Source: an uncultured Bacilli bacterium
Lineage (GTDB): Bacteria; Bacillota_I; Bacilli_A; RF39; UBA660
Assembly (NCBI GenBank): GCA_947589495.1
Contig: CANQAK010000005.1
Span: 1 to 56,601 of the forward strand
Direction of reading: 5' to 3'
DNA length: 56,601 nucleotides
Shown here: positions 2,211 through 21,974 of the stretch, piece after piece
Numbering within the stretch: the stretch's first letter is position 1
Layout: every line of letters begins with the position of its first letter
Notes under the pieces: model-generated
What the model was told of the DNA's origin: nothing
The model's database searches: none
The model's input: only the letters and a program-made list of their open reading frames with translations
Position numbers and translations under genes: made by a program

Positions 2211-2959
2211 AAGCACTTATAACGGGAGCATCTTCTGGTATTGGAAGAGATATGGCTAGATATTTAGCTAGTAAAAATATAGATTTAATTTTAGTAGCAA
2301 GAAGAAAAAATAAATTAGAAAGTTTGGCTAAAGAATTAAATGTCAATGTTAAAATAATTAGTATTGATTTAAGTATTGAAAAAAATGTTTATAAATTATA
2401 TGAAGATTGTAAAAATGAAAATATTGATATTTTAATTAATGATGCGGGTTTTGGCTTATTTGGAGATTTTACCAAAACTGATTTAGATACTGAATTAAAA
2501 ATGATTGATGTAAATATTAAAGCATATCATATCTTAACTAAACTTTTTTTAAAAGATTTTGTAAATAAAAATAAAGGTTATATATTAAATGTATGTTCTT
2601 CAGCAGGATTTATGGCGGGCCCTCATCTAAATACTTATTATGCTACTAAAAATTATATTACCAAATTAACTATGGCCATAAATGAAGAACTTCGTGAACA
2701 AAAAAGTAATGTTAAAATTTGTGCTCTATGTCCTGGACCAACAAATACTGAATTTAATAAAGTAGCACATGGTACATTTAGTATTAAAGAATCTAGTAGT
2801 GAATATGTTGCTAAATATGGAATAGATAATATGTTTAAAGGAAAAATGATTATTATTCCTACTCTAAGAATGAAATTAGGAATATTTGGTTTAAGATTTA
2901 TTCCATATCGTTTACAATTAATTATATCTTCATTTATTCAACATAGAAAAACTAAATAA
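2207..2959 (+). CDS. Short-chain dehydrogenase/reductase (SDR)
   Basis: [11 protein letters not shown](F)G, YYATK (YxxxK); ATGA overlap with uvrB. Confidence 0.92.
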
Positions 2960-2967
2960 AAAAGTTA

Positions 2968-5031
2968 TTATGAATTTTTATTTTCACAATAACTTTTTTT
3001 TAATATTCTTGTTGTATTTAATATTGTTAATAAAGTTACTCCAGTATCAGCAAAAACTGCTTGCCACATAGTTGCAATACCTATTGCACTTAGTATTAAT
3101 ACCAAAATTTTAACAGTAAATGCAAATATTAAATTTTGTTTAATTATTTTATCGGTTTTATGAGATATTTTTAATAATACCAATAAACTATTTAAATTAT
3201 CATTCATAATTACAACATCACTTGCTTCAATTGCAGAAGCACTTCCAATATTTCCCATAGAAATACCTACTTTAGCAATTCTTAATGCGGGAGCATCATT
3301 TACTCCATCTCCAACAAAAGCAACATTGCCATTATATTTTTTAATTTCTTTTTCTAAAAGATTAAATTTATCTTTAGGAAGTAATTCATAAGAAACATCT
3401 TTAATACCTACTTTTTTAGCAATATCTAAAGCAATACTTTTACTATCTCCCGTAAACATTTTAACATTAATACCCATGCTATTTAATTTTTCTATTGTTT
3501 CTTTAGCATTTTCTTTTATACCATCTATTAAGAGTAATTTAGAAATTATTTCATTATTAATACTTAGAAAAATTCCCGGAATATTATTTTCATAATTACA
3601 GAATTTGGCAGAACCAATTTTTATTTTATCATCATCTATTTTAAAACTAATACCATTACCTTCAATTTCTTTAAAATTTCTAACTTTAAATTTTTCTTTT
3701 ACTTTGCATAATTTTAAAATTGATTTAGCAATTGGATGATTAGATAATTCTTCTCCACTAACATAATATTTTAAAATCTCTTCTTTTTTATATTTATTAT
3801 TATAAATTTCTAAAGAATAATTTAAATTTTCATTATTAGTAATAGTACCTGTTTTATCAAATATAATTTCTTTGATAGTTCTAATGCCTTCAAGATAATC
3901 ACTACCTTTAATTAAAATTCCATTATTACTAGAAGCTCCAATACCTGAAAAATAAGCAAGAGGAACTGATATAGCAATAGCACAAGGACAAGAAACTACT
4001 AAAAATACTAAGGCTCTATATAAAGAATCACTAAAAGTTATACCAGGGACTAAAGGAAGAAGTAATGCGATTAAAATAGCTAATAATAAAATAATGGGAG
4101 TATATATTCTGGCTGCTTTAGATACAAATTTTTCTGTTTTAGCTTTTTTATCAGAAGCATTTTCTACTAAAGATAATATTTGAGCAACTGTACTATTTTC
4201 ATATAATTTAGTAACTTTCATAGTAATTAATCCATCAGTATTAATAGATCCTGAAAGTATTTCATCACCTACATTTACTTCAGATAAAATGCTTTCTCCA
4301 GTTAAGGCCTTTTTATCTAAAAGCCCATGACCTTCAATTACTTTACCATCTAATGGAACTTTTTCACCTTTTTTTATTACTATGATATCATTTATTTTTA
4401 CTTCAGTAGGATTTGTTCTTAACAAATCCCCATTAACTTTTAAATTAGCATATTCTGGTTTAATATCCATTAAATCTCCAATTGATTTTCGAGTATTATT
4501 AACTGCTAATCCTTCTAAAATTTTACCTATTTCATATAAAATAATAACCATTAATCCTTCATGAATATTATTAGTAAAATATGCACCAATACAGGAAATA
4601 GATACTAATAAATTTTCATCAATATTAAATCCTTTAATAAGCATAGTAATCGCTTTTTTTAATACTCTTTCCAATAATACTAAATAAGCAATTATAATTA
4701 AAATATTATGTATTAAAGAATTTTTTATAAATATTGATAATATAAAACAAATAATTCCTACTGCTAATCTAATAACATCAAATAACAATTTATTTTTATA
4801 TGTATTTTCATCTTGACTATATACTAATGTATCTGGTTCTACACTATGAACGATCTCTTTAACTAATTCTTTAACTCCATTTTTTAAAGGTGTTTCTATT
4901 ACTAAACTTAAATTAGCAAAATTAACACTGGCTTTATTAATATTTTCATTTTTATTTAAAGCATTTTCTATTTTTTTAGCACAATTAGCACAATCAAGAT
5001 TACTCAATTTAAATTTATATTTATAATTCAT
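2968..5031 (-). CDS. Heavy-metal (Zn/Cd/Co) P1B-type ATPase, CadA/ZntA-like
   Basis: N-terminal CANC HMA domain, TGES, SCPC, DKTGT, HP, GDGVND. Confidence 0.93.
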   Translation of the reverse strand: MNYKYKFKLSNLDCANCAKKIENALNKNENINKASVNFANLSLVIETPLKNGVKELVKEIVHSVEPDTLVYSQDENTYKNKLLFDVIRLAVGIICFILSIFIKNSLIHNILIIIAYLVLLERVLKKAITMLIKGFNIDENLLVSISCIGAYFTNNIHEGLMVIILYEIGKILEGLAVNNTRKSIGDLMDIKPEYANLKVNGDLLRTNPTEVKINDIIVIKKGEKVPLDGKVIEGHGLLDKKALTGESILSEVNVGDEILSGSINTDGLITMKVTKLYENSTVAQILSLVENASDKKAKTEKFVSKAARIYTPIILLLAILIALLLPLVPGITFSDSLYRALVFLVVSCPCAIAISVPLAYFSGIGASSNNGILIKGSDYLEGIRTIKEIIFDKTGTITNNENLNYSLEIYNNKYKKEEILKYYVSGEELSNHPIAKSILKLCKVKEKFKVRNFKEIEGNGISFKIDDDKIKIGSAKFCNYENNIPGIFLSINNEIISKLLLIDGIKENAKETIEKLNSMGINVKMFTGDSKSIALDIAKKVGIKDVSYELLPKDKFNLLEKEIKKYNGNVAFVGDGVNDAPALRIAKVGISMGNIGSASAIEASDVVIMNDNLNSLLVLLKISHKTDKIIKQNLIFAFTVKILVLILSAIGIATMWQAVFADTGVTLLTILNTTRILKKSYCENKNS

Positions 5032-5314
5032 TTATATGTTCACATCCTAACAAAAATATTTTTTTTACATGATCATCAGACAAAGAATAAATAATACAAT
5101 TACCTTCTTTTCTATATTTAACTAACTTAGCTTGTTTTAAAATTCGTAACTGATGAGAAACTGCCGATTGACTAATATTAATTTTACTAGCAATATCACA
5201 AACACATAACTCATTTTGTAATAAAACATTAATTATTTTTATTCTAGTTGAATCTCCAAATATTTTAAATAACTCAGCAATATCTATTGTTAAATCATCA
5301 TCCAATAAATTCAA
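5021..5314 (-). CDS. ArsR/SmtB family metal-sensing repressor
   Basis: FKIFGDSTRIKI, ELCVCDIA, SQSAVSHQLRIL, alpha5-type DDH-x10-H site; TTG start. Confidence 0.92.
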   Translation of the reverse strand: MNLLDDDLTIDIAELFKIFGDSTRIKIINVLLQNELCVCDIASKINISQSAVSHQLRILKQAKLVKYRKEGNCIIYSLSDDHVKKIFLLGCEHINEL

Positions 5315-5327
5315 TTAAATCACTCCC

Positions 5328-5363
5328 ATATTTATATATGAATAGATGTTCATATATAAATAT
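5328..5363. promoter_or_regulatory. SmtB/CzrA-type operator palindrome
   Basis: Perfect 15-6-15 inverted repeat ATATTTATATATGAA-tagatg-TTCATATATAAATAT with TGAA-N6-TTCA core just upstream of the ArsR gene. Confidence 0.85.
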
Positions 5364-5416
5364 ATTAGCATACTTTATATTAAATGTCTACAATAAAAAA
5401 ATGTGCTACTTACACA

Positions 5417-7114
5417 TTATTTTAAATTTTCTTTAATATATTCTTTAACAAAAGTTACTGCTTCTTTAACTTGTTTTTCTTCAAAATCTTTTTTAGTTCT
5501 TAATTTTACTTCCACAATATCATTTTCTATTTTACTACCCACAGTAATACGAATTGGAATACCTATTAAATCCATATCTTTAAATTTAATTCCTACTCTT
5601 TCATCACGGTCATCAAGTAATACTTCAATTCCTAATTTAGTTAATTCATCATATATTTCGTTTGCTTTTTCACATGATTTTTCATCTTTAATATTAACAA
5701 TAACTATACATACTTGAAAAGGTGCAATATTTAGAGGTAAAATAATTCCATTTTCATCATTATTTTGTTCGATAATACTAGCTAAAATTCTACCCACACC
5801 AATTCCATAACTACCCATTATAACTGGTTTAGATAAATTTTTTTCATCAAGATAAGTTAACCCTAAGGCTTCAGAATATTTTGTACCTAATTTAAATAAA
5901 TTACCTATTTCTATACCTTTTTTAAAATATAATGAACCACCACATTTTGGACAAATATCATTTTCTTTGACATTAACAATATCCCCCACTACATCATATT
6001 TAAAATCTTTTAAATTAACGTTAATATAGTGTTTACCTTCAATATTTGCTCCACAGCAAAAATTCTTCATATTTAATATTTCTTTATCAATAACAATTTT
6101 CGTATTTAAATTGATAGGGCCAGTAAAACCTGCAACAGCATTACTTTTACTAATTAATTTATCAGTTGCAAAAGATATTTCATTAACCCCTAAAAGTTTA
6201 CAGGCCTTTGTTTCATTAAATTCTCTATCCCCTCTTATAAAGAAAACAACTAATTCTGAAGATACATTCATAAGTAATGCTTTTACTGTATCTTTAATGC
6301 TTATTTTTAAATAATCACAAACTTCTTCAATTGTTTTCTTATTTGGAGTATCAACTAATTCTAGTTTTTTTTCTTCTTGATTATTTTTTTCATTAGATAT
6401 AACTTCAGATACTTCAAGATTGGATGCATAATCACATTTATCACATAATACTAAACAATCTTCCCCTATATCAGTTACTGCTTGATATTCTTCAGATAAA
6501 CTTCCTCCCATAACACCAGTATCAGCTTTAACTATTTTATAATTTATTTGTAATCTATTATAGATATTGTTATAAGCATCTTTCATTTTATGATAAGATA
6601 AATCTAATCCTTCTTCATCTTTATCAAAAGAATAAGCATCTTTCATAATAAATTCTCTTACTCTAATTAAACCATATCTAGGTCTTGGTTCATCACGAAA
6701 TTTATCAGCTTGTTGGTATAAAGTAAAAGGTAAATCTTTATAACTTTTAACCATTGATTTTGCAGCAATTGTAAATAATTCTTCATGAGTTGGTCCTAAT
6801 ACATAAGGTTTATCAAATCTATCTTTTAAATTAAACATACTATTTCCTAGTAATTTAGTTCTACCACAAACTTCATAATATTCAGTAGGTATTAAACTAG
6901 GCATTAATAATTCTAAAGCTCCAGCATTATCCATTTCTTCTTTAACAATTTTTTTAATTTTATCTAATATTCTTAGTCCAAGAGGTAAATACATATAAAT
7001 ACCTGCACCAACTTTTTTAATCATTCCTGCTCTTACTAATAAATTACCACTTATACTTTCTTCATCTTTAGCATCTTCTCTTAAAGTATAAAAATAACTC
7101 CCTTTAAGTTTCAT
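5417..7114 (-). CDS. proS: Proline--tRNA ligase (bacterial type with editing insertion)
   Basis: LGPTHEE, KFRDEPRPRYGLIRVREFIMKDAYSF, GIEIGNLFKLG, MGSYGIG. Confidence 0.97.
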   Translation of the reverse strand: MKLKGSYFYTLREDAKDEESISGNLLVRAGMIKKVGAGIYMYLPLGLRILDKIKKIVKEEMDNAGALELLMPSLIPTEYYEVCGRTKLLGNSMFNLKDRFDKPYVLGPTHEELFTIAAKSMVKSYKDLPFTLYQQADKFRDEPRPRYGLIRVREFIMKDAYSFDKDEEGLDLSYHKMKDAYNNIYNRLQINYKIVKADTGVMGGSLSEEYQAVTDIGEDCLVLCDKCDYASNLEVSEVISNEKNNQEEKKLELVDTPNKKTIEEVCDYLKISIKDTVKALLMNVSSELVVFFIRGDREFNETKACKLLGVNEISFATDKLISKSNAVAGFTGPINLNTKIVIDKEILNMKNFCCGANIEGKHYINVNLKDFKYDVVGDIVNVKENDICPKCGGSLYFKKGIEIGNLFKLGTKYSEALGLTYLDEKNLSKPVIMGSYGIGVGRILASIIEQNNDENGIILPLNIAPFQVCIVIVNIKDEKSCEKANEIYDELTKLGIEVLLDDRDERVGIKFKDMDLIGIPIRITVGSKIENDIVEVKLRTKKDFEEKQVKEAVTFVKEYIKENLK

Positions 7115-13141: not shown

Positions 13142-14062
13142 ATGTTTAAATATAGTTTAGATAATAAAAGATATCACACTCTTAATTATTTTTATAGAAC
13201 AAAATTTAATAGTAAAGTATTTAAAGTACCTATTGATGCCCATTTTAGTTGCCCAAATAAAATAAATAATCATGGTTGTATTTATTGTTATGAAAATAGT
13301 AAAGCTAATATTATTGATAGTAAGGCTTCTATTAAAGAACAATTTTTAAATAATATTAAAGTATTAGAAAAAAAATGGCCAAATAGTTTATATATACCTT
13401 ACTTTCAAGCTGGTACTAATACTTATGCTCCACTTAGTACTTTAAAAAATATTTATGAAGAGTTATTAAATGAACCAAAAGTTGTTGGCCTAGCTATTGC
13501 TACTAGACCTGATACTTTATCTAATGAAATACTTGATTATTTAGAAACATTAAATAAAAAAACATTTTTAACAATTGAGCTAGGCTTACAATCAAGTAAT
13601 AACAATACTTTAAAATTTATTAAAAGAGGACATGATGTTAATACATTTATTAATGCTGTAAAAGAACTTCATAAAAGACATATTTTTGTAGTAGCCCATA
13701 TTATAAATGGGCTACCCTATGAAACAGAAAAAGATATGCTAAATACTATTAAATTATTAAATAATTTAAATATTGATGGTATTAAAATACATATGTTATA
13801 TGTTTCAAAAAATACAGAATTAGCTTCTATATATGAAAAAGAAAAATTTCATATATTAACTAAAGAAGAATATATAGATATTGTTATTAAACAATTAGAA
13901 TTATTAAAACCAGAGGTAGTTATTGAAAGAATTACTGGTGATCCTATCAAAGAAGAATTAATTACTCCAACTTGGTTATTAAAAAAATTTTGTGTATTAA
14001 ATGATATTGATAAAGAAATGGTAAAAAGAAATACCGAACAAGGTATTTCATCTTCCAAATAA
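13142..14062 (+). CDS. Radical SAM protein, YhcC/YtqA (TIGR01212-like) family
   Basis: FSCPN...GCIYC, YFQAGTNTYA, ATRPD, IELGLQS, RGHD, GIKIH, RITGD. Confidence 0.9.
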   Translation: MFKYSLDNKRYHTLNYFYRTKFNSKVFKVPIDAHFSCPNKINNHGCIYCYENSKANIIDSKASIKEQFLNNIKVLEKKWPNSLYIPYFQAGTNTYAPLSTLKNIYEELLNEPKVVGLAIATRPDTLSNEILDYLETLNKKTFLTIELGLQSSNNNTLKFIKRGHDVNTFINAVKELHKRHIFVVAHIINGLPYETEKDMLNTIKLLNNLNIDGIKIHMLYVSKNTELASIYEKEKFHILTKEEYIDIVIKQLELLKPEVVIERITGDPIKEELITPTWLLKKFCVLNDIDKEMVKRNTEQGISSSK

Positions 14063-14093
14063 TTGTTAATAACTTCTTAGTTTTCAACAAAAT

Positions 14094-14156
14094 AAAAGGG
14101 AGGTCGTTACTTCTCCCAGGGTTAAGTTAAGTCTATTTTTACGTCTTCGTTGACGA
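14094..14156. repeat. 63-bp conserved element, copy 1 (3' of cassette-1 surface gene)
   Basis: 61/63 identical to 15799-15861 by manual alignment; contains CGTC-N6-GACG mini-hairpin and GGGAG-N10-CTCCC hairpin followed by U-tract on minus strand. Confidence 0.92.
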
Positions 14157-14168
14157 TTTTTTTATTTG

Positions 14169-15422
14169 TTATGAAACGATGTAAAATGGAGTTCCTATTT
14201 CTCCTGTACCTTCGAGTACCACATCGGACTTCAGATAGAAGACCGGGCGGATAGCATATCCAAGGCTTAAATTGCTGTAGTCAACGGCTCCACTTGGGCC
14301 CACCCACCACGCAGAGAAGGCAGCAGTCCCGGCAGCGTTGTTTCGACCCATACGAGTCATGGTCCATTCGAATCGCTCATCTGTAGATGTTTCTCCTCCA
14401 TTATTACTCATATGTATCCAACTTGTTTTACATTGTGCAGCATCTTGCCTACAACTCGATTCTGATCCTGTTCCACTTAATGCATATGCATAATCATGTA
14501 TATACATTAATCCTATTGGTTTTGATTCTGTCTTTTTTTCCCATTTTTTATCTGTTACTTCTTTTCCAGTTATTGGATCAATATATTTTGTATTTGCTTG
14601 ACCTGTTTCTATTTTATATACTGTCTCTGTTGGTATATTTGAATTTATATAACCATAACTTATATCTCCATATAACCATTGTTGTGGTTCTATTTTATTT
14701 TGTATACTACTATCTAATGTATTATAGTATGTATTATTTAATGTGCTAAATATTGTACTTTCTGGCCACTCTTTGTTTGTTGAATAATTATCCCACCATT
14801 GATGTGTACTTTCATATCTTGTTTGTTTTATTACTTTGATATTTCCTTCTTCTGTTATTCCTATGATTCGATACATGTTTTCATCTGTTCCACTACTAGT
14901 TGCATTACATCCATTTAGTCCCACTTCATTCAAACATATATAATTTTTTACTTTATTTCCTTTTAATTCATCTACACCTTGGTAACGGTACATTCCTCCA
15001 ATTGGTTCATCACTTAAACTTTCATCATTTGTTCTTGAATCTATTAATTCTTGTGGATTCTCTGGTGTTTTTTTATCAAAATATAAATAACAGTATGATG
15101 TTTTATTTGTACTTACTGTTATTTTATCACTTTCATATGTTAAACTATTTTCTATTTTTTCTCCATTATTATCCATACATCCTGACTTTTCTGTATTTAA
15201 CTTATAATCATTTCCTGGAAATATTGATTGTTCTTTATATTCTCCATCTTCCCCTTTTACCATAATAGCAAACATATTATTTTTTTCAACATCTTTTAAG
15301 CTAACTGTATCCAATGTTGCATTTACCGATTTATTCTTGCTTATAAAAACTATACTTGTTGTTAATAATAATATTAGAATTAATAATGTAATAGTTATTT
15401 TCTTATTCATATTTTTATCCAT
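14169..15422 (-). CDS. Membrane-anchored surface protein with one C-terminal CLec-like domain; putative DGR target
   Basis: N-terminal hydrophobic anchor (start may be 15410), 2-Cys adaptor GCMD...SYCYLYFD, domain ending EWTMTR...W.V...AIRPVFYL...GTG...PFYI. Confidence 0.8.
   Translation of the reverse strand: MDKNMNKKITITLLILILLLTTSIVFISKNKSVNATLDTVSLKDVEKNNMFAIMVKGEDGEYKEQSIFPGNDYKLNTEKSGCMDNNGEKIENSLTYESDKITVSTNKTSYCYLYFDKKTPENPQELIDSRTNDESLSDEPIGGMYRYQGVDELKGNKVKNYICLNEVGLNGCNATSSGTDENMYRIIGITEEGNIKVIKQTRYESTHQWWDNYSTNKEWPESTIFSTLNNTYYNTLDSSIQNKIEPQQWLYGDISYGYINSNIPTETVYKIETGQANTKYIDPITGKEVTDKKWEKKTESKPIGLMYIHDYAYALSGTGSESSCRQDAAQCKTSWIHMSNNGGETSTDERFEWTMTRMGRNNAAGTAAFSAWWVGPSGAVDYSNLSLGYAIRPVFYLKSDVVLEGTGEIGTPFYIVS
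14232..14369 (-). other. DGR-type variable region VR-A
   Basis: About 54% GC over 14221-14380 (manual count) in an AT-rich gene; aligns with VR-B1/VR-B2 plus one extra codon. Confidence 0.72.
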
Positions 15423-15433
15423 CCTATATGTCC

Positions 15434-15510
15434 ATAGGTAATATTTACCTATACAACAATTACATTATAGGCAAATTATGCCTAAAAGTCAATAGGTAAA
15501 ATATAACTAT
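15434..15510. promoter_or_regulatory. Three operator palindromes ATAGGYAA-N3-(TTACCTAT-like) in cassette-1 divergent control region
   Basis: 15434-15452 ATAGGTAAtatTTACCTAT (perfect), 15467-15485 ATAGGCAAattATGCCTAA, 15492-15510 ATAGGTAAaatATAACTAT. Confidence 0.8.
15464..15492 (-). promoter_or_regulatory. Sigma-A promoter of cassette-1 surface gene
   Basis: TTGACT (15492-15487), 17 bp, TATAAT (15469-15464). Confidence 0.8.
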
Positions 15511-15534
15511 ATTAAAATGGTGTTGGTGTTATAA

Positions 15535-15762
15535 ATGAATAGATTAAAAGAGATTCGAGAAGACAAAGATTTATTTCAAAAAGATATAGCAGAATATCTA
15601 AATGTTGATCAATCTAATTACAGTAAATATGAATTAGAAAAAATTAACATTCCCATTTCTATACTTATAAAATTAGCAGATTTTTATAATACAAGTGTTG
15701 ATTATTTAGTATATAGAACTGATGATAGAAAACCTTATCCTAAAAGTAAATTATCTAAATGA
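15535..15762 (+). CDS. Small XRE-family HTH regulator (cassette 1)
   Basis: RLKEIRED..QKDIAEYLNVDQSNYSKYE..LADFYNTSVDYL. Confidence 0.93.
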   Translation: MNRLKEIREDKDLFQKDIAEYLNVDQSNYSKYELEKINIPISILIKLADFYNTSVDYLVYRTDDRKPYPKSKLSK

Positions 15763-15766
15763 GATT

Positions 15767-15790
15767 CTACCAAATATGGTAGTTTTTTTT
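15767..15790 (+). terminator. Intrinsic terminator of XRE-1
   Basis: CTACCA-AATA-TGGTAG followed by T8. Confidence 0.8.
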
Positions 15791-15798
15791 ACAAACAA

Positions 15799-15861
15799 AA
15801 AAGGGAGGTCGTTACTTCTCCCAGGGTTAAGTTAAATCTATTTTAACGTCTTCGTTGACGA
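15799..15861. repeat. 63-bp conserved element, copy 2 (3' of cassette-2 surface gene)
   Basis: 61/63 identical to 14094-14156; same position relative to the stop codon. Confidence 0.92.
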
Positions 15862-15880
15862 GTTTTTATTTGTTTTATTA

Positions 15881-18028
15881 TCAATTTGCTATGTAGAATG
15901 GTTCTAACGTTGTTCCTTTTCCTTTTAATTTAATATCATTTGTTAGATAGAAGACGGGACGAACAGCAACCTTACGTTCTAAGGTGCTGGTGTCGACACG
16001 ACCGTCTACATACACAAACCACGCATCGAAGAAATTAAGGGAGTCATTACGCCGACCCACACGCGACATGGTCCATTCATAATCTGATGTATTTCCATTT
16101 TGGTACATATGCATCCAGCCACTATCTCTACATTTATTATATGAATCTGCTCCTTTAGAATTATGGCAACCATCTTGGTTTGCTTGATAATAATAATCAT
16201 GTAAGTACATTAATCCTATATTGGCTTCTTTTGTATTTGTCCATTTCTCTCCTGTTACTTCTTTCTTATCAGATGTTGTTGGTCCATAGTATTTGGTATT
16301 CATGTCTCCACTTTCTACTTGATATATTTGATTTGCTGTTAATGTTCCTACAAAATTATAATGCATATCTCCATAATACCAGTTCCATTTTTGTATTTTT
16401 CCTTGTATTTCACTATCTAGTGTTTTATAAAATGTTTCATTTAAAGTTGTATATACATCACTTCGAGGCCATTCTGGACATCCACTACTTCCACAATAAG
16501 AATCATCATAACGTCCGCTCCATGCATATGTACTTGTTCCGTTGTTCGTAAATTTTGTTTGCTTTATTACTTTGATATTTCCTTCTGGAGTTATTCCTAT
16601 GATTCGGTACATATTGTCATCATAACCATTATTTTTTGCATCACATCCATTTGTTCCTACTTCTTTTAAGCATATATAGTTTTTTACTTTATTTTCTTTT
16701 AATTCATCTGCTCCTTGGTAACGGTACATTCCTCCAACTAAAGTTTTACTTAACGCATCTGTAGTATCTTCTAATCTTAATGTATTTTCTTGATCTGTTG
16801 GTATTACTTCTGTTAATGTATATGGATCTTCTACTGTTCCACTTCCATATAATGTTATATTACTTTTTAAATAGAATACTGGGCGAAGCGCAATAGCACC
16901 TACCAAGGAGCCGTTGGTGATTTCACCGTCCGTATCCACATACCATCTCCAGAAGAGAACAGAGTTATAATTACCCCGACCAACACGCGTCATGGTCTGT
17001 TCTCTTGCCTCATTTCCAGATGTTGTTATTCCATTATTTTTTATGTGCATCCAACCATTATCTTTACATTTTTGATACGAATCTTTTCCTTTTGCATAAT
17101 GACAACCATCTTCGTTTGCTTGATAATAGTAATCATGTAAATATATTAATCCTATATTAGCTTTTTCATTCATTTGAGTCCAGCTTTCATTTGTTACTTC
17201 TGCTGTATTACTTGATTTATGTCCATAGTATTTTGTATTTTTTGCTCCTGTTTCTACTTGGTATATTTCATTTGCACTTAATGTCCCTACAAAATCATAA
17301 TGCATATCTCCATACCACCAGTTTTGTGGTTCTATTTTATTTTTTATTTCTTCATTTAATGAATTGTAAAATGTGGTATTTAATGTTGTATATAATTCAC
17401 TTTCTGGCCATTCTGGACAACCATCTGTTCCACATGTTGAATCGCTATCATTTGAGTTCCATGCATAATTTCCTATACTTGTTTGTTTCATGACTTTTAT
17501 ATTTCCATTCTCTGTGATTCCTATAATCCTATACATTTCATCACTTTGACTTGAACATTTTCCTTCGAAACATAAATAGTTATCTACATCTGGTCCTTGG
17601 TAACGATACATACCTCCTACAGGATTAATACTTAATCCACTGCTCTTTTTTAATTGTTCTATTAATTCTTTTGCATTATTCTTATCAAAATATAAATAAC
17701 AATATGATGTTTTATTTGTAGTAAGAGTTACTTTGTTACTATCTGAATCATATGTTAAGCTGTTTTCTATTTTTTCTCCATTATTATCCATACATCCAGA
17801 TAATTTTTCATTATAGAAATAATCTTCAGGCCATTCATTAGAGTTACTTACTTCATATTCTCCACTATCATTTTGAAGCATTATTGCAAACATATTATTT
17901 TTTTCTACTTCTTTTAAACTAACTGTATCTAATGTTGCATTTACCGATTTATTTTTTCTTATAAAAACTATACTTGTTGTTAATATTAATAATAAAATTA
18001 TTGTTGTAATAAATATTTTCTTTTTCAT
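15881..18028 (-). CDS. Membrane-anchored surface protein with two tandem CLec-like domains; putative DGR target
   Basis: Start MKKKIF at 18028 (the ORF-track start lies inside the promoter); N-terminus nearly identical to the 14169 gene; two GGMYRYQG...RPVFYL domains. Confidence 0.8.
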   Translation of the reverse strand: MKKKIFITTIILLLILTTSIVFIRKNKSVNATLDTVSLKEVEKNNMFAIMLQNDSGEYEVSNSNEWPEDYFYNEKLSGCMDNNGEKIENSLTYDSDSNKVTLTTNKTSYCYLYFDKNNAKELIEQLKKSSGLSINPVGGMYRYQGPDVDNYLCFEGKCSSQSDEMYRIIGITENGNIKVMKQTSIGNYAWNSNDSDSTCGTDGCPEWPESELYTTLNTTFYNSLNEEIKNKIEPQNWWYGDMHYDFVGTLSANEIYQVETGAKNTKYYGHKSSNTAEVTNESWTQMNEKANIGLIYLHDYYYQANEDGCHYAKGKDSYQKCKDNGWMHIKNNGITTSGNEAREQTMTRVGRGNYNSVLFWRWYVDTDGEITNGSLVGAIALRPVFYLKSNITLYGSGTVEDPYTLTEVIPTDQENTLRLEDTTDALSKTLVGGMYRYQGADELKENKVKNYICLKEVGTNGCDAKNNGYDDNMYRIIGITPEGNIKVIKQTKFTNNGTSTYAWSGRYDDSYCGSSGCPEWPRSDVYTTLNETFYKTLDSEIQGKIQKWNWYYGDMHYNFVGTLTANQIYQVESGDMNTKYYGPTTSDKKEVTGEKWTNTKEANIGLMYLHDYYYQANQDGCHNSKGADSYNKCRDSGWMHMYQNGNTSDYEWTMSRVGRRNDSLNFFDAWFVYVDGRVDTSTLERKVAVRPVFYLTNDIKLKGKGTTLEPFYIAN
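15944..16078 (-). other. DGR-type variable region VR-B2 (C-terminal)
   Basis: GC-rich 45-codon block GAA TGG ACC ATG...CGT CCC GTC TTC TAT CTA; NNC/NNT variable codons. Confidence 0.78.
16868..17002 (-). other. DGR-type variable region VR-B1 (internal domain)
   Basis: GC-rich 45-codon block colinear with VR-B2; differences concentrated at codon positions 1-2. Confidence 0.75.
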
Positions 18029-18048
18029 ATTTGACTTTCCAATCTTAT

Positions 18049-18125
18049 ATACAATAGATATTTTGTATCTTAAGTTGATTATACAAAACTTATTTTGTAT
18101 TGTCAATACAAAGCTTTAGTTGTAT
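18049..18125. promoter_or_regulatory. Three operator palindromes ATACAA-N8-TTGTAT in cassette-2 divergent control region
   Basis: 18049-18068, 18081-18100 (ATACAAAActtaTTTTGTAT), 18106-18125; all three have exact ATACAA/TTGTAT arms. Confidence 0.85.
18078..18106 (-). promoter_or_regulatory. Sigma-A promoter of cassette-2 surface gene
   Basis: Perfect TTGACA (18106-18101), 17 bp, TATAAT (18083-18078). Confidence 0.85.
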
Positions 18126-18151
18126 GAGAATTTTTGTTAAAGGTGATATTT

Positions 18152-18385
18152 ATGAATATTAATAGAATAAAAGAAATAAGAGAAGATAGAGATCTATATC
18201 AAAAAGATGTTGCTAATGCTTTAAAAATAAAACAACAACAATACTCAGAGTATGAAATAGGTAAAAGGCTAATTCCAATTAATTATTTAAGTGATTTAGC
18301 TGATTTTTATGATGTATCAATAGATTACTTATTAGGTAAAACTGATGAAAGAAAGCCTTATCCAAAAAGTAAATTAATGAAATAA
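18152..18385 (+). CDS. Small XRE-family HTH regulator (cassette 2), paralog of 15535
   Basis: RBS AAGGTG; RIKEIRED..QKDVANALKIKQQQYSEYE..LADFYDVSIDYL..RKPYPKSKL. Confidence 0.93.
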   Translation: MNINRIKEIREDRDLYQKDVANALKIKQQQYSEYEIGKRLIPINYLSDLADFYDVSIDYLLGKTDERKPYPKSKLMK

Positions 18386-18405
18386 AATGTAAAAGGAAGA
18401 AGTTT

Positions 18406-20211
18406 TTAAGCTTCTTCCATTTTTTCAAATTGACTATTATATAATTCAGCATATTTACCATTAAGTTTTAATAATTCTTCATGAGAACCTTGTTCTACTA
18501 TATTACCTTCTTGCATCATTAATATTAAATCAGCATTTTTAATAGTGGATAATCTATGAGCAATAATAAATGATGTTCTTCCTTCAGTTAATTTATCCAT
18601 CGCTTTTTGAACTAATTCTTCTGTTCTTGTATCAACACTACTAGTGGCTTCATCTAAAATTAAGAAAGGGGCATCTTTAACCATACCACGAGCAATAGTT
18701 AACAATTGTTTTTGTCCTGAAGATAATGTTTCATTATCACTAAGTATTGTATTATAACCTTTAGATAAAGATTTAATATAATGATGTAATCCCACTATCT
18801 TACATACTTTTTCTATTTCTTCATCAGTAATATTACTTTTATTATATTTAATATTTTCTTTTATAGTACCTTCAAAAACCCATGTATCTTGTAATACCAT
18901 AATAAATAAATCATGAATATTTTTTCTAGTTAAATTTTTAGTAGATACACCATCAATTTTAATATCACCATCTACTATATCATAGAATTTCATTAACAAG
19001 TTAACCATTGTTGTTTTACCAGCTCCCGTTGGTCCTACTATGGCTATTTTATCCCCTGGATTAACTTTAACATTAAAATCTTTAATTATTGTTTTATCTT
19101 TATCATAACCAAATTTAACATGTTCAAAAACAATTTCTCCTTTAACATTATTTTTGTTTAGTGACTCTTTGATTCCATCTTCACTACTCATTTCTTCTTC
19201 ATCTAAAAATTCAAATACTCTTTCAGATGCAGCAGCACAAGATTGAAGACTTGATAAAGATTGAGCAATTTGTGATAAAGGTTGAGTAAATAAACGAATA
19301 TATAACATAAATGCTACTATTACACCAAAATCAATAATATTGTTCATAGTTAGTAGAGCTCCTACTACACATACACAAACATAACCAAAGTTACCAATAA
19401 ATCCCATAAATGGATGCATTAACCCTGATAAAAATTGTCCTTTTCTTACATCATCAAATATTTTATCATTAACATTATCAAAAACTTCTTCAGCTTCTGT
19501 AATACCATTATAAACTCTTACTATATTGTGTCCAGAATACATCTCTTCAATATGACCATTAAGTTCACCAATTTCATCTTGTAATCTATCAAAATATTTT
19601 TGACTTTTACTAATAACAAAAATCATAAAAGCAAACCCAATTAAACTAGAAAGTATTGCAGTAAGTGCCATAATACCATTAGTTATAAACATCATAAATA
19701 CTGATCCGATTAAAAGAGTTATGGCACTTACTAACGTACCTAAACTTTGATTTAATGTCATACTTAAAGTATCAACATCATTCGTTACTCTTGATAAAAT
19801 ATCTCCATAACTATTTTTATCAAAATATTTTAAAGGCATATTATTAATTTTTTCACTAATTTCTTTTCTTAATTGTTTAGAAAACTTATTAGTAACTACA
19901 GCCATAATAAATTGTTGTAAATAACCAAAGATAGCACTTACAATATACATTATTAATAATATTAAACTAATTTGTTTAATTTTAGTCATATTTATACCAT
20001 TAAATAATCCTTCAGTAATTAAATTAGTTATTTCTTTTAATTTATCAGGACCTATTATTGATAAAATAGAACTAATCATCGCAAGAATAACCGCTACTAA
20101 AACAGGAATAAAATAAGGTTTACAATAATTTATTAATGTTTTCATAGACTTTTTAAAGTCTTTAGCTTTTTCATTATTTTGTCCTGGCCCTCTTCTTCTA
20201 CCATGGTTCAT
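18406..20211 (-). CDS. Heterodimeric ABC exporter subunit (consensus NBD)
   Basis: TMD plus GPTGAGKT, LSSGQKQ, LILDEATS, IAHRLST. Confidence 0.95.
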   Translation of the reverse strand: MNHGRRRGPGQNNEKAKDFKKSMKTLINYCKPYFIPVLVAVILAMISSILSIIGPDKLKEITNLITEGLFNGINMTKIKQISLILLIMYIVSAIFGYLQQFIMAVVTNKFSKQLRKEISEKINNMPLKYFDKNSYGDILSRVTNDVDTLSMTLNQSLGTLVSAITLLIGSVFMMFITNGIMALTAILSSLIGFAFMIFVISKSQKYFDRLQDEIGELNGHIEEMYSGHNIVRVYNGITEAEEVFDNVNDKIFDDVRKGQFLSGLMHPFMGFIGNFGYVCVCVVGALLTMNNIIDFGVIVAFMLYIRLFTQPLSQIAQSLSSLQSCAAASERVFEFLDEEEMSSEDGIKESLNKNNVKGEIVFEHVKFGYDKDKTIIKDFNVKVNPGDKIAIVGPTGAGKTTMVNLLMKFYDIVDGDIKIDGVSTKNLTRKNIHDLFIMVLQDTWVFEGTIKENIKYNKSNITDEEIEKVCKIVGLHHYIKSLSKGYNTILSDNETLSSGQKQLLTIARGMVKDAPFLILDEATSSVDTRTEELVQKAMDKLTEGRTSFIIAHRLSTIKNADLILMMQEGNIVEQGSHEELLKLNGKYAELYNSQFEKMEEA

Positions 20212-21974
20212 TATTTATCACCTTCTTCTAATTCACTTTGCGATAATTGAGATAAAGCAATTTCTTTATAAACTTTACAATTTTTTAATAATTCTTTATG
20301 TGTACCCATTCCTACTACTTTACCTTCATCAATAACTAAAATTTTATCAGCTTCTTTAATCGTACCTATTCTTTGAGCTACAATTAAATTAGTAGCATCT
20401 TTAGTATATTTTTTTAATTCTTTTCTTAAAGTAAAATCTGTTTTATAATCAAGTGCACTAAAAGAATCATCAAATATATATATTTCTGGCTCACGAGCAA
20501 TCGCTCTTGCAATAGCTACTCTTTGTTTTTGACCACCAGAAATATTAGTACCACCTTGAGAGATGCTTGCATCATATGTTCCTTCCATTTTAGAAATAAA
20601 TTCAGTTCCTTGTGCAACATCTATTGCTTCTTTTATTTTTTTATCATTAGGTTTTTTACCATCATTCATTCCATAAGCAACATTTTCTTTTATAGTACCT
20701 CTAAAAATAACAGCTTTTTGTGATACATATCCTAATATATTATTTAAAGATTCAATTTTATAATCTTTAACATTTACACCATCTACTAATACTTCTCCTT
20801 CAGTTGCATCATAAAATCTTGGTATTAAATTAATTAATGTTGATTTACCTGAACCAGTTGAACCAATAAATGCCACTGTCTCTCCACGATTTGCTTTAAA
20901 TGAAATATCATGTAACATATATTCTTCAGCATCTGGATATTTAAAAGATACATGTTTAAATTCTACTGTTCCAACTTCATTACCTTTTGTAACAGTACCA
21001 TCTTTAATTTTTTCATCTGTTTCTAAAACTTCTAAAATTCTTTTAGCTGATACAGATGCTCTTGGATAAATAATAAATATCATTATTAACATCATAAAAG
21101 ACATAAGTACTTGCATAGCATAAGATGAAAATACAACCATATCACTAAATAAAGATATTTTATCCATCATATTAGCTTTATCTATTAATATTGCTCCAAT
21201 AAAATAAATAGCTAAAGATAAAGTTGTCATTACAAGTGACATTACTGGAGATAATATTCCCATTGTTTTTTGATTAAATAATTGAACATTTTTTAATTCT
21301 TCATTAGCGTGTTCAAATTTCTTTTGTTGATAATTTTCAGCATTAAACGCTCTTATTACACGAATACCAGTTAAATTTTCTCTAGTAATTCTATTTAAAT
21401 TATCAGTTAATTTTTGAACAATTTTAAATTTAGGGAATACTAATAACATTAAAATAACTATTGTAATTAGTAAAACTACTACCCCAATAAGAGTAGCTAA
21501 ACTCCATGTTAAATTTTTACCTGTTATTTTAACAATAGCCCACGTAGCCATAATCGGAGCTTTAATAATTGCTTGTAAACCCATACCAATAAGCATTTGT
21601 ACTTGGGTAACATCATTAGTAGTTCTAGTTATTAAACTACTAGTAGAAAAATTTTTAATTTCTTCTGTACTAAATTTTCCAACTTTAGAAAAAATTTCTC
21701 TACGAATTATTTTACCAAAATATGCTGCTACATATGCTGCAAAATAGCCAACAACAAATGACGCCACTAAACTTCCTAGGGCACAGGCTACCATGTAGCC
21801 ACCTTCTTTTAGAATGCTAGACATAGTACTGCCTTCAGTTTGAACTAAAACAGTAATTTCCGACATATAATCAGGTATTTTTAATTCTAAAAATACATTT
21901 ATAGAAATAAAAATTACACATATAAGTGCATATATTAATTGTTTTTTCCCCATTTTTTTAAATAACTTAAACAT
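20211..21974 (-). CDS. Heterodimeric ABC exporter subunit (degenerate NBD)
   Basis: TMD plus GSTGSGKS, ISGGQKQR, FDDSFSALD, VAQR. Confidence 0.95.
   Translation of the reverse strand: MFKLFKKMGKKQLIYALICVIFISINVFLELKIPDYMSEITVLVQTEGSTMSSILKEGGYMVACALGSLVASFVVGYFAAYVAAYFGKIIRREIFSKVGKFSTEEIKNFSTSSLITRTTNDVTQVQMLIGMGLQAIIKAPIMATWAIVKITGKNLTWSLATLIGVVVLLITIVILMLLVFPKFKIVQKLTDNLNRITRENLTGIRVIRAFNAENYQQKKFEHANEELKNVQLFNQKTMGILSPVMSLVMTTLSLAIYFIGAILIDKANMMDKISLFSDMVVFSSYAMQVLMSFMMLIMIFIIYPRASVSAKRILEVLETDEKIKDGTVTKGNEVGTVEFKHVSFKYPDAEEYMLHDISFKANRGETVAFIGSTGSGKSTLINLIPRFYDATEGEVLVDGVNVKDYKIESLNNILGYVSQKAVIFRGTIKENVAYGMNDGKKPNDKKIKEAIDVAQGTEFISKMEGTYDASISQGGTNISGGQKQRVAIARAIAREPEIYIFDDSFSALDYKTDFTLRKELKKYTKDATNLIVAQRIGTIKEADKILVIDEGKVVGMGTHKELLKNCKVYKEIALSQLSQSELEEGDK

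What the first reader, a model, noticed from the sequence alone, without database searches (positions are those of the whole stretch)
14094..18385. Tandem cassettes pairing a hypervariable (DGR-type) surface protein with its own XRE switch
Seen: the same four-part unit occurs twice, head to tail: 63-bp element, anchored CLec-like gene (minus strand), consensus promoter with three operators, divergent 75-77 aa XRE gene. Established: DGR targets are often C-type-lectin-fold proteins with a C-terminal variable region, and can lie far from the RT. Inference: this is a modular repertoire of diversified adhesins/receptors in which sequence diversification is combined with independent per-gene on/off control. 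I do not know of this combined architecture being described, but I cannot search the literature.
Basis: partly seen in the sequence, partly recalled or inferred. Interest (0 to 1): 0.92.

Follow-up and report, generated by a model that had tools for sequence, protein, structure and literature searches.

The report
XRE-switched surface lectin genes, frozen DGR targets
Two neighbouring genes for membrane-anchored, lectin-like surface proteins each sit behind a strong promoter that appears to be guarded by its own small repressor, and their binding tips were once written by a mutagenic retroelement found elsewhere in the genome but now look frozen.

Summary
Window 14094-18385 carries two head-to-tail copies of a four-part unit. 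Each unit has a conserved 3' element, a minus-strand gene for an anchored C-type-lectin-like protein, a near-perfect sigma-70 promoter with three palindromic operators, and a divergent 75/77-aa XRE gene.

The DGR reading is half right. The same 1.11-Mb genome has a complete DGR (target, TR, MutS-like gene, Avd, RT) on contig C7, and about 50 paralogues of the window genes. The window's three VR-like segments keep the template's rare codons and are saturated with changes at its adenines. They also differ at 13/76 and 19/76 non-adenine positions, and the third has a one-codon insertion. They are DGR-derived but not current strict targets.

The XRE pairing is real and conserved. All 7 genes with this anchor type have a divergent XRE. 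Each operator motif occurs only in its own cassette. Across the genus, operators covary with the XRE recognition helix and sit in the promoter spacer. However, most family genes have no XRE.

I read this as a genus-specific repertoire of frozen, individually repressed surface receptors. It is a new variant of known kinds. Repression and on/off switching remain inferred.

The parts
14094..14162 (-). Element B, copy 1. A conserved roughly 40-nt 3'-UTR motif (core at 14141-14156) followed by a terminator hairpin (14098-14117) and a T-run.
   Evidence: 95.7% identical to copy 2. (10 core copies in the genome, 8 of them 13-39 nt after a family gene's stop). (motif invariant across species while the hairpin sequence changes but stays paired, by inspection).
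14169..15422 (-). Surface protein gene 1 (417 aa): N-terminal TM helix, small beta-sandwich, one enlarged C-type-lectin-like head.
   Evidence: Z 14.6 to the IgAse N-terminal CTLD, Z 7.1 to the Lcl C-terminal domain, then many CTLDs, TvpA Z 5.1, Mtd Z 4.6.
14235..14357 (-). VR-like segment of gene 1 (123 nt, one codon longer than the TR, 56% G+C).
15434..15452 (.). Operator O1 of cassette 1, a palindrome downstream of the -10 box.
15464..15492 (-). Promoter of gene 1, TTGACT-17-TATAAT (11/12).
15468..15484 (.). Operator O2 of cassette 1; it fills the 17-nt promoter spacer.
15493..15509 (.). Operator O3 of cassette 1 (imperfect palindrome), abutting the -35 box on the XRE side.
   Evidence: the same three-site layout in orthologous cassettes of other species.
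15535..15762 (+). XRE1, a 75-aa HTH_3 protein.
   Evidence: RstR-like, below cut-off.
15767..15782 (.). Hairpin with T-runs on both sides; the likely terminator of XRE1.
15799..15867 (-). Element B, copy 2.
15881..18028 (-). Surface protein gene 2 (715 aa from ATG 18028): the same anchor and beta-sandwich, then two lectin-like heads in tandem.
   Evidence: P0003, 715 aa; two separate matches, to query residues 3-415 and 130-416.
15947..16066 (-). VR-like segment of head 2. Over the 113-nt core scan: 13/76 non-A and 26/37 A-position mismatches to the TR.
16871..16990 (-). VR-like segment of head 1. Over the core scan: 19/76 non-A and 27/37 A-position mismatches to the TR.
18049..18068 (.). Operator O1' of cassette 2 (ATACAA-N8-TTGTAT).
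18078..18106 (-). Promoter of gene 2, TTGACA-17-TATAAT (12/12).
18081..18100 (.). Operator O2' of cassette 2, in the promoter spacer.
18106..18125 (.). Operator O3' of cassette 2, abutting the -35 box.
18152..18385 (+). XRE2, a 77-aa HTH_3 protein.
18395..18418 (.). Bidirectional terminator between XRE2 and the convergent ABC-transporter gene.

Best explanation
The region holds two modular cassettes from a genus-specific repertoire of surface receptors.

Each cassette encodes a protein held in the membrane by an N-terminal helix. The protein carries a small beta-sandwich stalk and one or two enlarged C-type-lectin-like heads. The last roughly 40 codons of each head descend from a DGR variable region. 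They were written by adenine mutagenesis from the template repeat now on contig C7, or from its ancestor. They then stopped being rewritten and drifted, so each now has a fixed binding specificity.

Expression of each gene is most likely set by its own small XRE repressor. A dimer would bind three cassette-specific palindromes: one in the transcribed leader, one filling the 17-nt spacer of a consensus promoter, and one abutting the -35 box towards the XRE gene. This would shut the surface gene and autoregulate the XRE.

Shown: the anatomy, the TR-templated origin, the lack of a strict TR match, the privacy of the operators, and the helix-operator covariation.

Inferred: DNA binding, the direction of regulation (repression), surface exposure, and any on/off heterogeneity.
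For: DGR in the genome:
- There is one RT match.
- The C7 locus reads double-HTH XRE, 533-aa target, TR, MutS_I-like gene, bAvd-like gene, RT, 95-aa ORF.
- The adjacent VR differs from the TR at 0/76 non-A and 15/37 A positions.

Window VR-like segments:
- A-position mismatches are 26/37 and 27/37 against non-A mismatches of 13/76 and 19/76 (Fisher P 4e-8 and 1e-6).
- Among A-free TR codons that keep the amino acid, 10/14 and 9/10 use the TR's own rare codon. About 2.4 and 1.8 are expected from genome codon usage.
- G+C is 49-56% in a genome of about 24%.

Fold.

Cassette recurrence:
- The core of element B occurs 10 times, 8 of them just after family genes.
- 6 of 7 evaluable B-linked genes have a divergent XRE.
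- All 7 genes with the TTSIVF-type anchor have an XRE, and none of the 33 non-XRE genes examined has that anchor.

Operators:
- Each motif is found only in its own cassette.
- In 29 XRE loci with upstream sequence (28 from other species plus the window's own), the spacer sequence changes with the recognition-helix class. 11 of 13 loci of the XRE1 class keep a promoter scoring at least 11/12 with the class operator in its spacer.

Linkage seen from the XRE side: 14 clear cases plus 4 probable or uncertain, out of 24 evaluable loci in other genomes.

The site is variable. In 2 relatives the radical-SAM gene is followed directly by the ABC-transporter gene, and in a third about 1 kb further on. 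In 5 others a family gene sits there, in 1 an XRE gene, and in 1 the DGR RT.
Against: - No expression or binding data exist. No RNA run holds the stretch.
- The XREs have no sensor domain, and nothing shows what would lift repression.
- A single autorepressor is not by itself bistable.
- Most family genes lack an XRE yet also have strong promoters, so XRE control is not a general property of the family.
- The assembly is 88% complete, so a second TR cannot be strictly excluded.
- Enrichment of mismatches at TR adenines is also expected if those codons simply encode the ligand-contacting, fast-evolving residues. The shared rare codons are the stronger argument for TR templating.
- The anchor could be a cleaved signal peptide rather than a membrane anchor; this was not tested.
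Confidence: 0.7

Rival explanations
1. One reading: the two genes are currently diversified remote DGR targets, so ongoing hypermutation and per-gene switching act together on the same genes.
For: - A DGR is present in the genome, and the VR-like segments align in register with its TR.
- One window segment keeps a near-perfect copy of the conserved GC-rich 3' end of the VR.
- DGRs can act on remote targets (PMC5758913, passages read).
- The assembly is incomplete.
Against: - Non-A mismatches (13/76 and 19/76) are spread over the whole segment, including synonymous changes near its 3' end.
- The third segment has a codon insertion.
- The three segments differ in length and sequence, so they could not share one unseen TR.
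- An all-against-all test of 32 segments found no second template.
- Logan contigs of the one sample that holds the region reproduce 15897-16217 and 15841-16368 without any difference. Contigs drop rare variants, so this is weak evidence.
Confidence: 0.08
2. Ordinary local regulation, not a switch. The XREs are conventional regulators (repressor, or activator-then-repressor like restriction-modification C proteins) that set the level or timing of expression. The tandem arrangement is just duplication of a gene together with its regulator.
For: - The XREs match generic HTH_3, RstR and control-protein profiles only.
- A divergent autoregulated XRE beside its target is common architecture (general knowledge).
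- Non-XRE paralogues have equally good promoters.
Against: - The XRE type is expanded to as many as 36 copies in genomes of 1.2-1.4 Mb.
- Operators diversify in step with the recognition helix.
- Each operator motif is private within the genome.
This points to selection for independent addressability rather than simple co-duplication. It does not show bistability.
Confidence: 0.2
3. Remnant of a mobile element or a defence module: a phage-type immunity repressor paired with a surface protein that masks receptors or excludes superinfection.
For: - The XREs are closest to phage RstR-type repressors, and to the HTH and CapH regulators of defence systems, all below curated cut-offs.
- The cassettes occupy a variable site between two housekeeping genes.
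- DUF6273-type lectin domains are known from phage receptor-binding proteins (PMC10743442, passages read).
Against: - No phage, integrase or transposase genes flank the cassettes. The neighbours are a sigma factor, a SpoU methylase, a radical-SAM protein and ABC transporters.
- The surface proteins match no PADLOC family.
- The family is present in 24 of 24 genus genomes searched, with 2-68 matches each. That fits a core host trait.
Confidence: 0.05

Closest known systems
DGR variable proteins with a C-type-lectin fold (Mtd of phage BPP-1, TvpA of Treponema, DUF6273 'tentaclins' of gut phages) and their undiversified paralogues
   Same: - The VR lies at the C-terminal end of a lectin-like fold.
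- A TR, Avd and RT are in the same genome, with the MutS-like accessory gene of 'architecture D' (PMC5758913, passages read).
- Paralogues with graded or remnant TR-VR homology have been described in cyanobacteria (PMC7517822, passages read).
   Different: - The window copies fail the A-to-N-only test.
- The family is far larger relative to genome size: 52 ORF pieces, 6.4% of a 1.11-Mb assembly.
- The head is about twice the size of a canonical CTLD.
- A subfamily carries private XRE/operator sets, and the cognate DGR target has a conserved double-HTH XRE upstream. I found no description of this in print (searches; open-access library only).
N-terminal domain of Thomasclavelia ramosa IgA peptidase (PDB 9qa6)
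   Same: It is the best structural match: Z 14.6, rmsd 3.7 A, 205 residues aligned, model residues 125-417. The depositors describe it as an enlarged C-type-lectin-like domain, double the usual size and most similar to the Legionella Lcl C-terminal domain (PMC12237041, passages read).
   Different: - Sequence identity is 14%.
- That domain is fused to a metallopeptidase, is dispensable for catalysis, and has no known function.
- It has no VR, DGR or XRE context.
Phage-type Cro/CI (XRE) repressors with a tripartite operator over divergent promoters; RstR; restriction-modification C proteins
   Same: - A small HTH_3 protein.
- Three palindromes between divergent genes, with one in the promoter spacer.
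- Operator specificity tracks the recognition helix.
   Different: - There is no partner (Cro-like) repressor, so the classic bistable pair is missing.
- The controlled gene is a surface lectin, not lytic or restriction genes.
- The module is multiplied many times per genome with diverged specificities.
Phase-variable multigene surface-protein families of small-genome Mollicutes (Vsp, Vlp, Vsa and similar; recalled, not searched)
   Same: A small genome devotes several percent of its DNA to one family of membrane-anchored surface proteins. The 5' and 3' ends are conserved and the middles are variable.
   Different: Those families switch by site-specific inversion, slipped-strand repeats or gene conversion. 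Here there is no invertase or simple repeat in the cassettes. The candidate control is a private transcriptional repressor, and the variability comes from a retroelement.

Membership tests
Current DGR target (variable region) | A DGR reverse transcriptase with accessory gene(s) and a template repeat in the same genome | tested here: met
   RT on C7. bAvd-like and MutS_I-like genes. NCBIfam DivGenRetAVD hit at E 7.6e-9, below cut-off. TR at C7:12374-12486. The RT carries IGNMTSQ; that the [ILV]GxxxSQ motif marks DGR RTs is recalled.
Current DGR target (variable region) | VR differs from TR only at TR adenines (minor exceptions allowed) | tested here: not met
   Window segments have 13/76 and 19/76 non-A mismatches, and the third has a 3-nt insertion. 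The cognate VR on C7 has 0/76.
Current DGR target (variable region) | VR at the 3' end of the gene or domain, in a ligand-binding fold | tested here: met
   The segments encode the last strands of each lectin-like head.
Current DGR target (variable region) | Adenine-position polymorphism within a population | not testable with these tools
   Only Logan contigs of one sample were available. Contigs drop rare variants.
DGR-derived (former) variable region | Nucleotide-level descent from the TR: shared atypical codons, A-depletion, excess change at TR adenines | tested here: met
   10/14 and 9/10 TR codons kept against about 2 expected. G+C 49-56%. A-position mismatches 26-27/37.
DUF6273 (PF19789) / C-type-lectin-like fold | Pfam gathering score | tested here: not met
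   22.7 and 16.4 bits against 23.5. Some paralogues carry the precomputed PF19789 label.
DUF6273 (PF19789) / C-type-lectin-like fold | CTLD core fold | tested here: met
   VIA-align gives Z 14.6 to 9qa6 and Z 7.1 to 8q4e, followed by dozens of CTLDs at Z 4.5-5.9, including TvpA and Mtd. The model has pLDDT 87.6.
XRE / Cro-CI type HTH repressor | HTH_3 domain above the Pfam cut-off | tested here: met
   48.6 and 46.6 bits against 23.
XRE / Cro-CI type HTH repressor | Palindromic operators overlapping the regulated promoter, specific to the protein | tested here: met
XRE / Cro-CI type HTH repressor | Demonstrated DNA binding and repression | not testable with these tools
   Needs EMSA or footprinting and a reporter assay.
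Bistable genetic switch (lambda-like) | Two mutually antagonistic regulators, or positive feedback | tested here: not met
   Each cassette holds only one regulator gene. No second small ORF of regulator type lies in either intergenic region.

The most novel reading that the evidence does not exclude
An 'archive-and-address' receptor system in a lineage of uncultured, small-genome gut Bacilli. One DGR continuously writes new binding sites into a lectin head. Useful variants are duplicated to other sites and released from the retroelement. A subset is then placed under private, orthogonal XRE/operator pairs. A cell could thereby express chosen members of a stored receptor library independently, perhaps heterogeneously or exclusively. 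This would be a bacterial analogue of generating, storing and selectively expressing an antigen-receptor repertoire. The conserved 3' motif shared by the cassettes and the DGR operon would tie the two layers together.
Probability: 0.2. Interest if true: 0.85.

Novelty: new variant of a known kind. Interest (0 to 1): 0.55.

Why it matters
DGRs are usually studied as one element acting on one or a few live targets. Here a genome of about 1.1 Mb spends about 6% of its DNA on some 50 descendants of a DGR target. A whole genus of rabbit and goat gut Bacilli shares the family, the retroelement and a much-multiplied XRE family.

The data suggest what happens to DGR products over time: write, copy, freeze. 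They also show that some copies acquired orthogonal repressor/operator pairs. If the XREs are real per-gene switches, two things follow. First, this would be a natural library of dozens of non-cross-reacting repressor-operator pairs. Second, it would be a testable model for how a minimal-genome symbiont varies its surface without invertases or repeats.

The conserved XRE upstream of the live DGR target also raises the question of whether expression of DGR targets is generally gated. That question has hardly been asked.

Tried and rejected
- Rfam on 13500-19000 at a permissive threshold gave only two chance-level hits, E 0.5 and 0.15. Element B matches no described RNA family.
- Folding element B as RNA gave z-scores of -1.1 and -3.1. 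This is no strong structure beyond the terminator hairpin.
- I first thought the cognate target's GC-rich downstream hairpin ('type A') was shared by many near-TR paralogues. A stricter test found it, or a variant of it, after only 3 genes, so I dropped the idea that the element type marks live against dead targets.
- A second template repeat was sought by testing each of 32 same-length VR-like segments as template for all the others. None was found.
- PADLOC and NCBIfam gave nothing for the two surface proteins.
- No RNA holder was listed for the stretch.
- Logan contigs of four runs of one sample were laid on the region. The region is shattered into 160-530-nt pieces at depth of about 4-8. 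Most listed differences and joints come from paralogues at the 85% likeness I chose. No conclusion on VR polymorphism or recombination is possible.
- Supplementary files were not consulted, because they are closed. Supplementary Table S1 of PMC5758913 and the target lists of large DGR surveys could show whether DGRs of this genus are already catalogued.
- Roux et al. 2021 and Paul et al. 2017 are recalled only and were not read.
- I did not run complex prediction, because no claim here rests on a protein-protein contact.
Full report
**Anatomy**

The window is one whole contig (C5) of a 1.11-Mb assembly in 51 contigs. The assembly has about 24% G+C and is 88% complete.

Between a radical-SAM gene (13142-14062, + strand) and two ABC-transporter genes (18406-21974, - strand) lie two units of identical layout. 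Read on the minus strand, each unit runs as follows:
- a consensus promoter: TTGACT-17-TATAAT scoring 11/12, and TTGACA-17-TATAAT scoring 12/12;
- a gene for a protein with an N-terminal hydrophobic helix;
- a stop codon;
- a conserved element ('B'), 13 or 20 nt after the stop. The two copies are 95.7% identical over 69 nt.

Divergent from each promoter is a 75- or 77-aa HTH_3 (XRE) gene.

Each intergenic region has three palindromes in the same positions: one downstream of the -10 box, one filling the 17-nt spacer, and one abutting the -35 box. The palindromes differ between the two cassettes (TAGGYA..TRCCTA against ATACAA-N8-TTGTAT). The strict motifs occur nowhere else in the assembly: 2 of 2 and 3 of 3 genome-wide hits lie in their own cassette, against 0.15 and 0.8 expected in shuffles.

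The element is 69-82 nt rather than 63. Gene 2 carries two heads. The true starts are probably ATG 18028 (gene 2) and ATG 18152 (XRE2).

**The protein**

Pfam gives only sub-threshold DUF6273 hits. An AlphaFold2 model of the 417-aa protein, built on 80 homologues, has mean pLDDT 87.6. It shows a helix at residues 3-31, a disordered linker, a small beta-sandwich at 51-117 and a large head at 125-417.

A Foldseek-independent search of 48,161 chains puts the N-terminal domain of the Thomasclavelia ramosa IgA peptidase first (Z 14.6, 205 residues aligned). Next come the Legionella Lcl C-terminal domain (Z 7.1) and a long run of C-type lectin domains. That run includes the two classical DGR variable proteins, TvpA (Z 5.1) and Mtd (Z 4.6).

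The depositors of the top hit describe it as a C-type-lectin-like domain of double size and unknown function (PMC12237041, passages read). DUF6273 has already been described as a lectin-fold DGR target in gut phages (PMC10743442, passages read). 'CLec-like' is supported.

**The DGR**

The genome has one RT match. Its locus on C7 reads as follows:
- a double-HTH XRE (164 aa, divergent);
- a 533-aa paralogue of the window genes;
- a non-coding template repeat;
- a MutS_I-like gene;
- a bAvd-like gene;
- a 375-aa RT;
- a 95-aa ORF.

This is the MSL-containing architecture of Wu et al. (PMC5758913, passages read).

The 113-nt core of the TR (37 A, 76 non-A) differs from the adjacent VR at 0 non-A and 15 A positions. 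That is the textbook DGR signature. So the refutation condition 'no DGR RT/TR in the genome' is not met.

**Are the window genes targets?**

An ungapped scan of the whole genome with the TR core found 44 other VR-like segments. They form a continuum from 3 to 30 non-A mismatches.

The window's segments stand at 13/76 (15955-16067) and 19/76 (16879-16991). The third (14235-14357) is one codon longer than the TR. The non-A differences are spread along the segments and include synonymous changes in the conserved GC-rich 3' end. No recent homing from this TR can therefore have occurred. No other segment behaves as a template for them.

Their origin from the TR is nevertheless clear:
- A-position mismatches are near saturation (26/37 and 27/37; Fisher P 4e-8 and 1e-6).
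- The segments are 49-56% G+C in a 24% genome.
- At A-free TR codons where the amino acid is kept, they use the TR's own codon in 10/14 and 9/10 cases. These include codons used for about 0.6-4% of their amino acid genome-wide. About 2 matches are expected by chance.

I conclude that they are former variable regions, now frozen. Paralogues with 'remnant TR-VR homology' and the idea of removing diversification once a variant is selected are in print for cyanobacteria (PMC7517822, passages read).

**The family**

phmmer with gene 1 finds 52 ORF pieces at E below 1e-10, totalling 71,007 nt or 6.4% of the assembly. Several are cut by contig ends or frameshifted, so there are about 45-50 genes.

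The family is present in 24 of 24 other genomes of the genus searched, with 2-68 matches each. It was found in 0 of 16 genomes from other families of the class.

Record titles of related loci call them uncultured Bacilli MAGs from rabbit and goat gut. The runs that hold the window are labelled rabbit gut metagenome.

An intact close orthologue of the RT is in 13 of the 41 other genus genomes. Five more have broken, split or truncated copies. In all, 26 of 41 have some match.

**The cassette as a unit**

Family genes fall into at least five N-terminal anchor types. The window's type (TTSIVF..KNKSVNATLD) occurs in 7 genes. All 7 have a divergent XRE, and none of the 33 non-XRE genes examined has this anchor.

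The 16-nt core of element B occurs 10 times in the assembly:
- 8 copies lie 13-39 nt after a family gene's stop;
- 1 is a second copy about 190 nt beyond one of these;
- 1 lies at the very end of the DGR operon, overlapping the stop of the 95-aa ORF.

Six of 7 evaluable B-linked genes have an XRE. There are thus 6 complete four-part cassettes (C5 x2, C18 x2, C4, C1) plus one cut by a contig end. C18 repeats the head-to-tail tandem arrangement.

The XREs in these cassettes belong to at least three sequence types, so the parts are shuffled rather than co-inherited as one block.

**XRE-operator specificity across species**

XRE1-type proteins are found in 40 of 41 other genus genomes, with up to 36 matches in one genome.

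Of 29 loci fetched from other genomes:
- 5 have no upstream sequence;
- 14 clearly have a family gene divergently adjacent;
- 4 more probably or possibly do;
- 6 do not.

Upstream sequence could be read for 29 loci: 28 of those from other genomes, plus the window's own. Grouping them by recognition-helix sequence shows that the palindromes change with the helix:
- ..DQSNYSKYE goes with TAGGYA..TRCCTA;
- ..SQVAYSYYE goes with AAAACA..TGTTTT;
- ..TQPQYSRYE goes with TATACG..CGTATA;
- ..KQQQYSEYE goes with ATACAAAA..TTTTGTAT;
- ..TQVQYSRYE goes with ATAACC..GGTTAT;
- ..SQRNYSYYE goes with AGAAGA..TCTTCT.

In 11 of 13 loci of the first class, the opposite strand carries a promoter scoring at least 11/12 with a 17-nt spacer made of the class operator. 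Overall 16 of 29 loci reach 11/12.

This is the strongest evidence that the XREs bind these sites and act on the surface-gene promoter. The position of the sites argues for repression. Binding and direction remain inferences.

**Limits of the pairing**

Starting from the family genes instead gives a different picture. I used 62 of the 80 related loci, dropping the 18 whose match began after query residue 40. Of these 62, 44 had at least 700 nt upstream, and only 5 of the 44 have a divergent XRE within 900 nt. That sample is dominated by a few MAGs.

In this genome, non-XRE genes also have strong promoters. The paralogues nearest to the TR (3-7 non-A mismatches) are not XRE-linked.

The one gene that combines live diversification with an XRE is the cognate DGR target. 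Its double-HTH XRE is conserved, at 75-79% identity, upstream of the target in 4 of 4 relatives with sequence there.

**The site**

I examined 29 relatives downstream of the orthologous radical-SAM gene:
- in 2 it is followed directly by the ABC-transporter gene, and in a third after about 1 kb;
- in 5 a family gene lies on the opposite strand;
- in 1 an XRE follows;
- in 1 the DGR RT follows;
- in 19 none of the genes I queried appears within the 1.5 kb fetched.

The window's 4.3-kb block is therefore an insertion into a variable site, not part of a prophage. No phage or mobility genes flank it.

**Element B**

Across species the first roughly 40 nt are nearly invariant. The following hairpin changes sequence while keeping its pairing and its T-run (by inspection, with no formal covariation test). 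Nineteen of 41 other genus genomes have matches, with up to 21 copies. In three of those genomes, besides this one, a core copy lies near the 3' side of the RT gene (positions compared).

I read B as a conserved 3'-UTR motif plus an intrinsic terminator. What the motif does is unknown.

**Verdict**

The genes are DGR-derived but frozen, and the XRE control is real in architecture but unproven in function and confined to a subfamily.
- Compared with known systems, this is a new variant. It combines DGR target paralogues, a lectin-fold surface family and Cro/CI-type repressors. The unusual features are the scale, the orthogonal repressor-operator sets and the conserved XRE at the live target.
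- I found no description of this combination in the open-access library. Subscription literature and supplements were not searchable.

Noticed in passing
G000 contig C7:14587-14874 (L002:8588-8875): A 95-aa ORF directly after the DGR RT has no Pfam hit. It is conserved in the same position in 5 of 5 relatives examined, at 46-71% identity. It may be an undescribed DGR accessory gene. Its last codons overlap a copy of the element-B core.
   Followed up: partly
L062 (G001:C21) 2700-6920: Five TR-like matches lie between the DGR target and the MutS-like gene in one relative, and two or three lie there in others. This suggests several template repeats or short extra VR-bearing genes in those loci.
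   Followed up: no
Loci of G010 and G021 listed: Many proteins of about 465-477 aa match only the first roughly 200-240 residues of the window protein (anchor plus beta-sandwich). A second family therefore shares the stalk but carries a different head. Several of these also sit beside XRE genes (positions compared).
   Followed up: no
G000, upstream of non-XRE family genes: At least five N-terminal anchor types exist. The non-XRE types share a conserved TTGACT-16-TATAAT promoter about 100 nt upstream of the start. This implies long conserved 5' leaders whose role is unknown.
   Followed up: no
L159 (G003:C37): In one relative the DGR RT and the 95-aa ORF lie immediately downstream of the radical-SAM gene. 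This is the site occupied by the two cassettes in the window.
   Followed up: partly
G000 contig C4:37179-37243: An orphan second copy of element B lies about 190 nt beyond the copy that follows gene C4_37466. It may be the scar of a lost cassette.
   Followed up: no
G000 contig C1:84116-85364: One cassette gene is split into two ORFs (142 and 282 aa) by a frameshift or stop. Its XRE and element B are kept.
   Followed up: no
window 14094-18385, Logan contigs: Short contigs join homologous positions of gene 1 and gene 2 (for example 14849 to 17514). They may be other paralogues or recombinants between family members. The two cannot be told apart at this depth and likeness.
   Followed up: no
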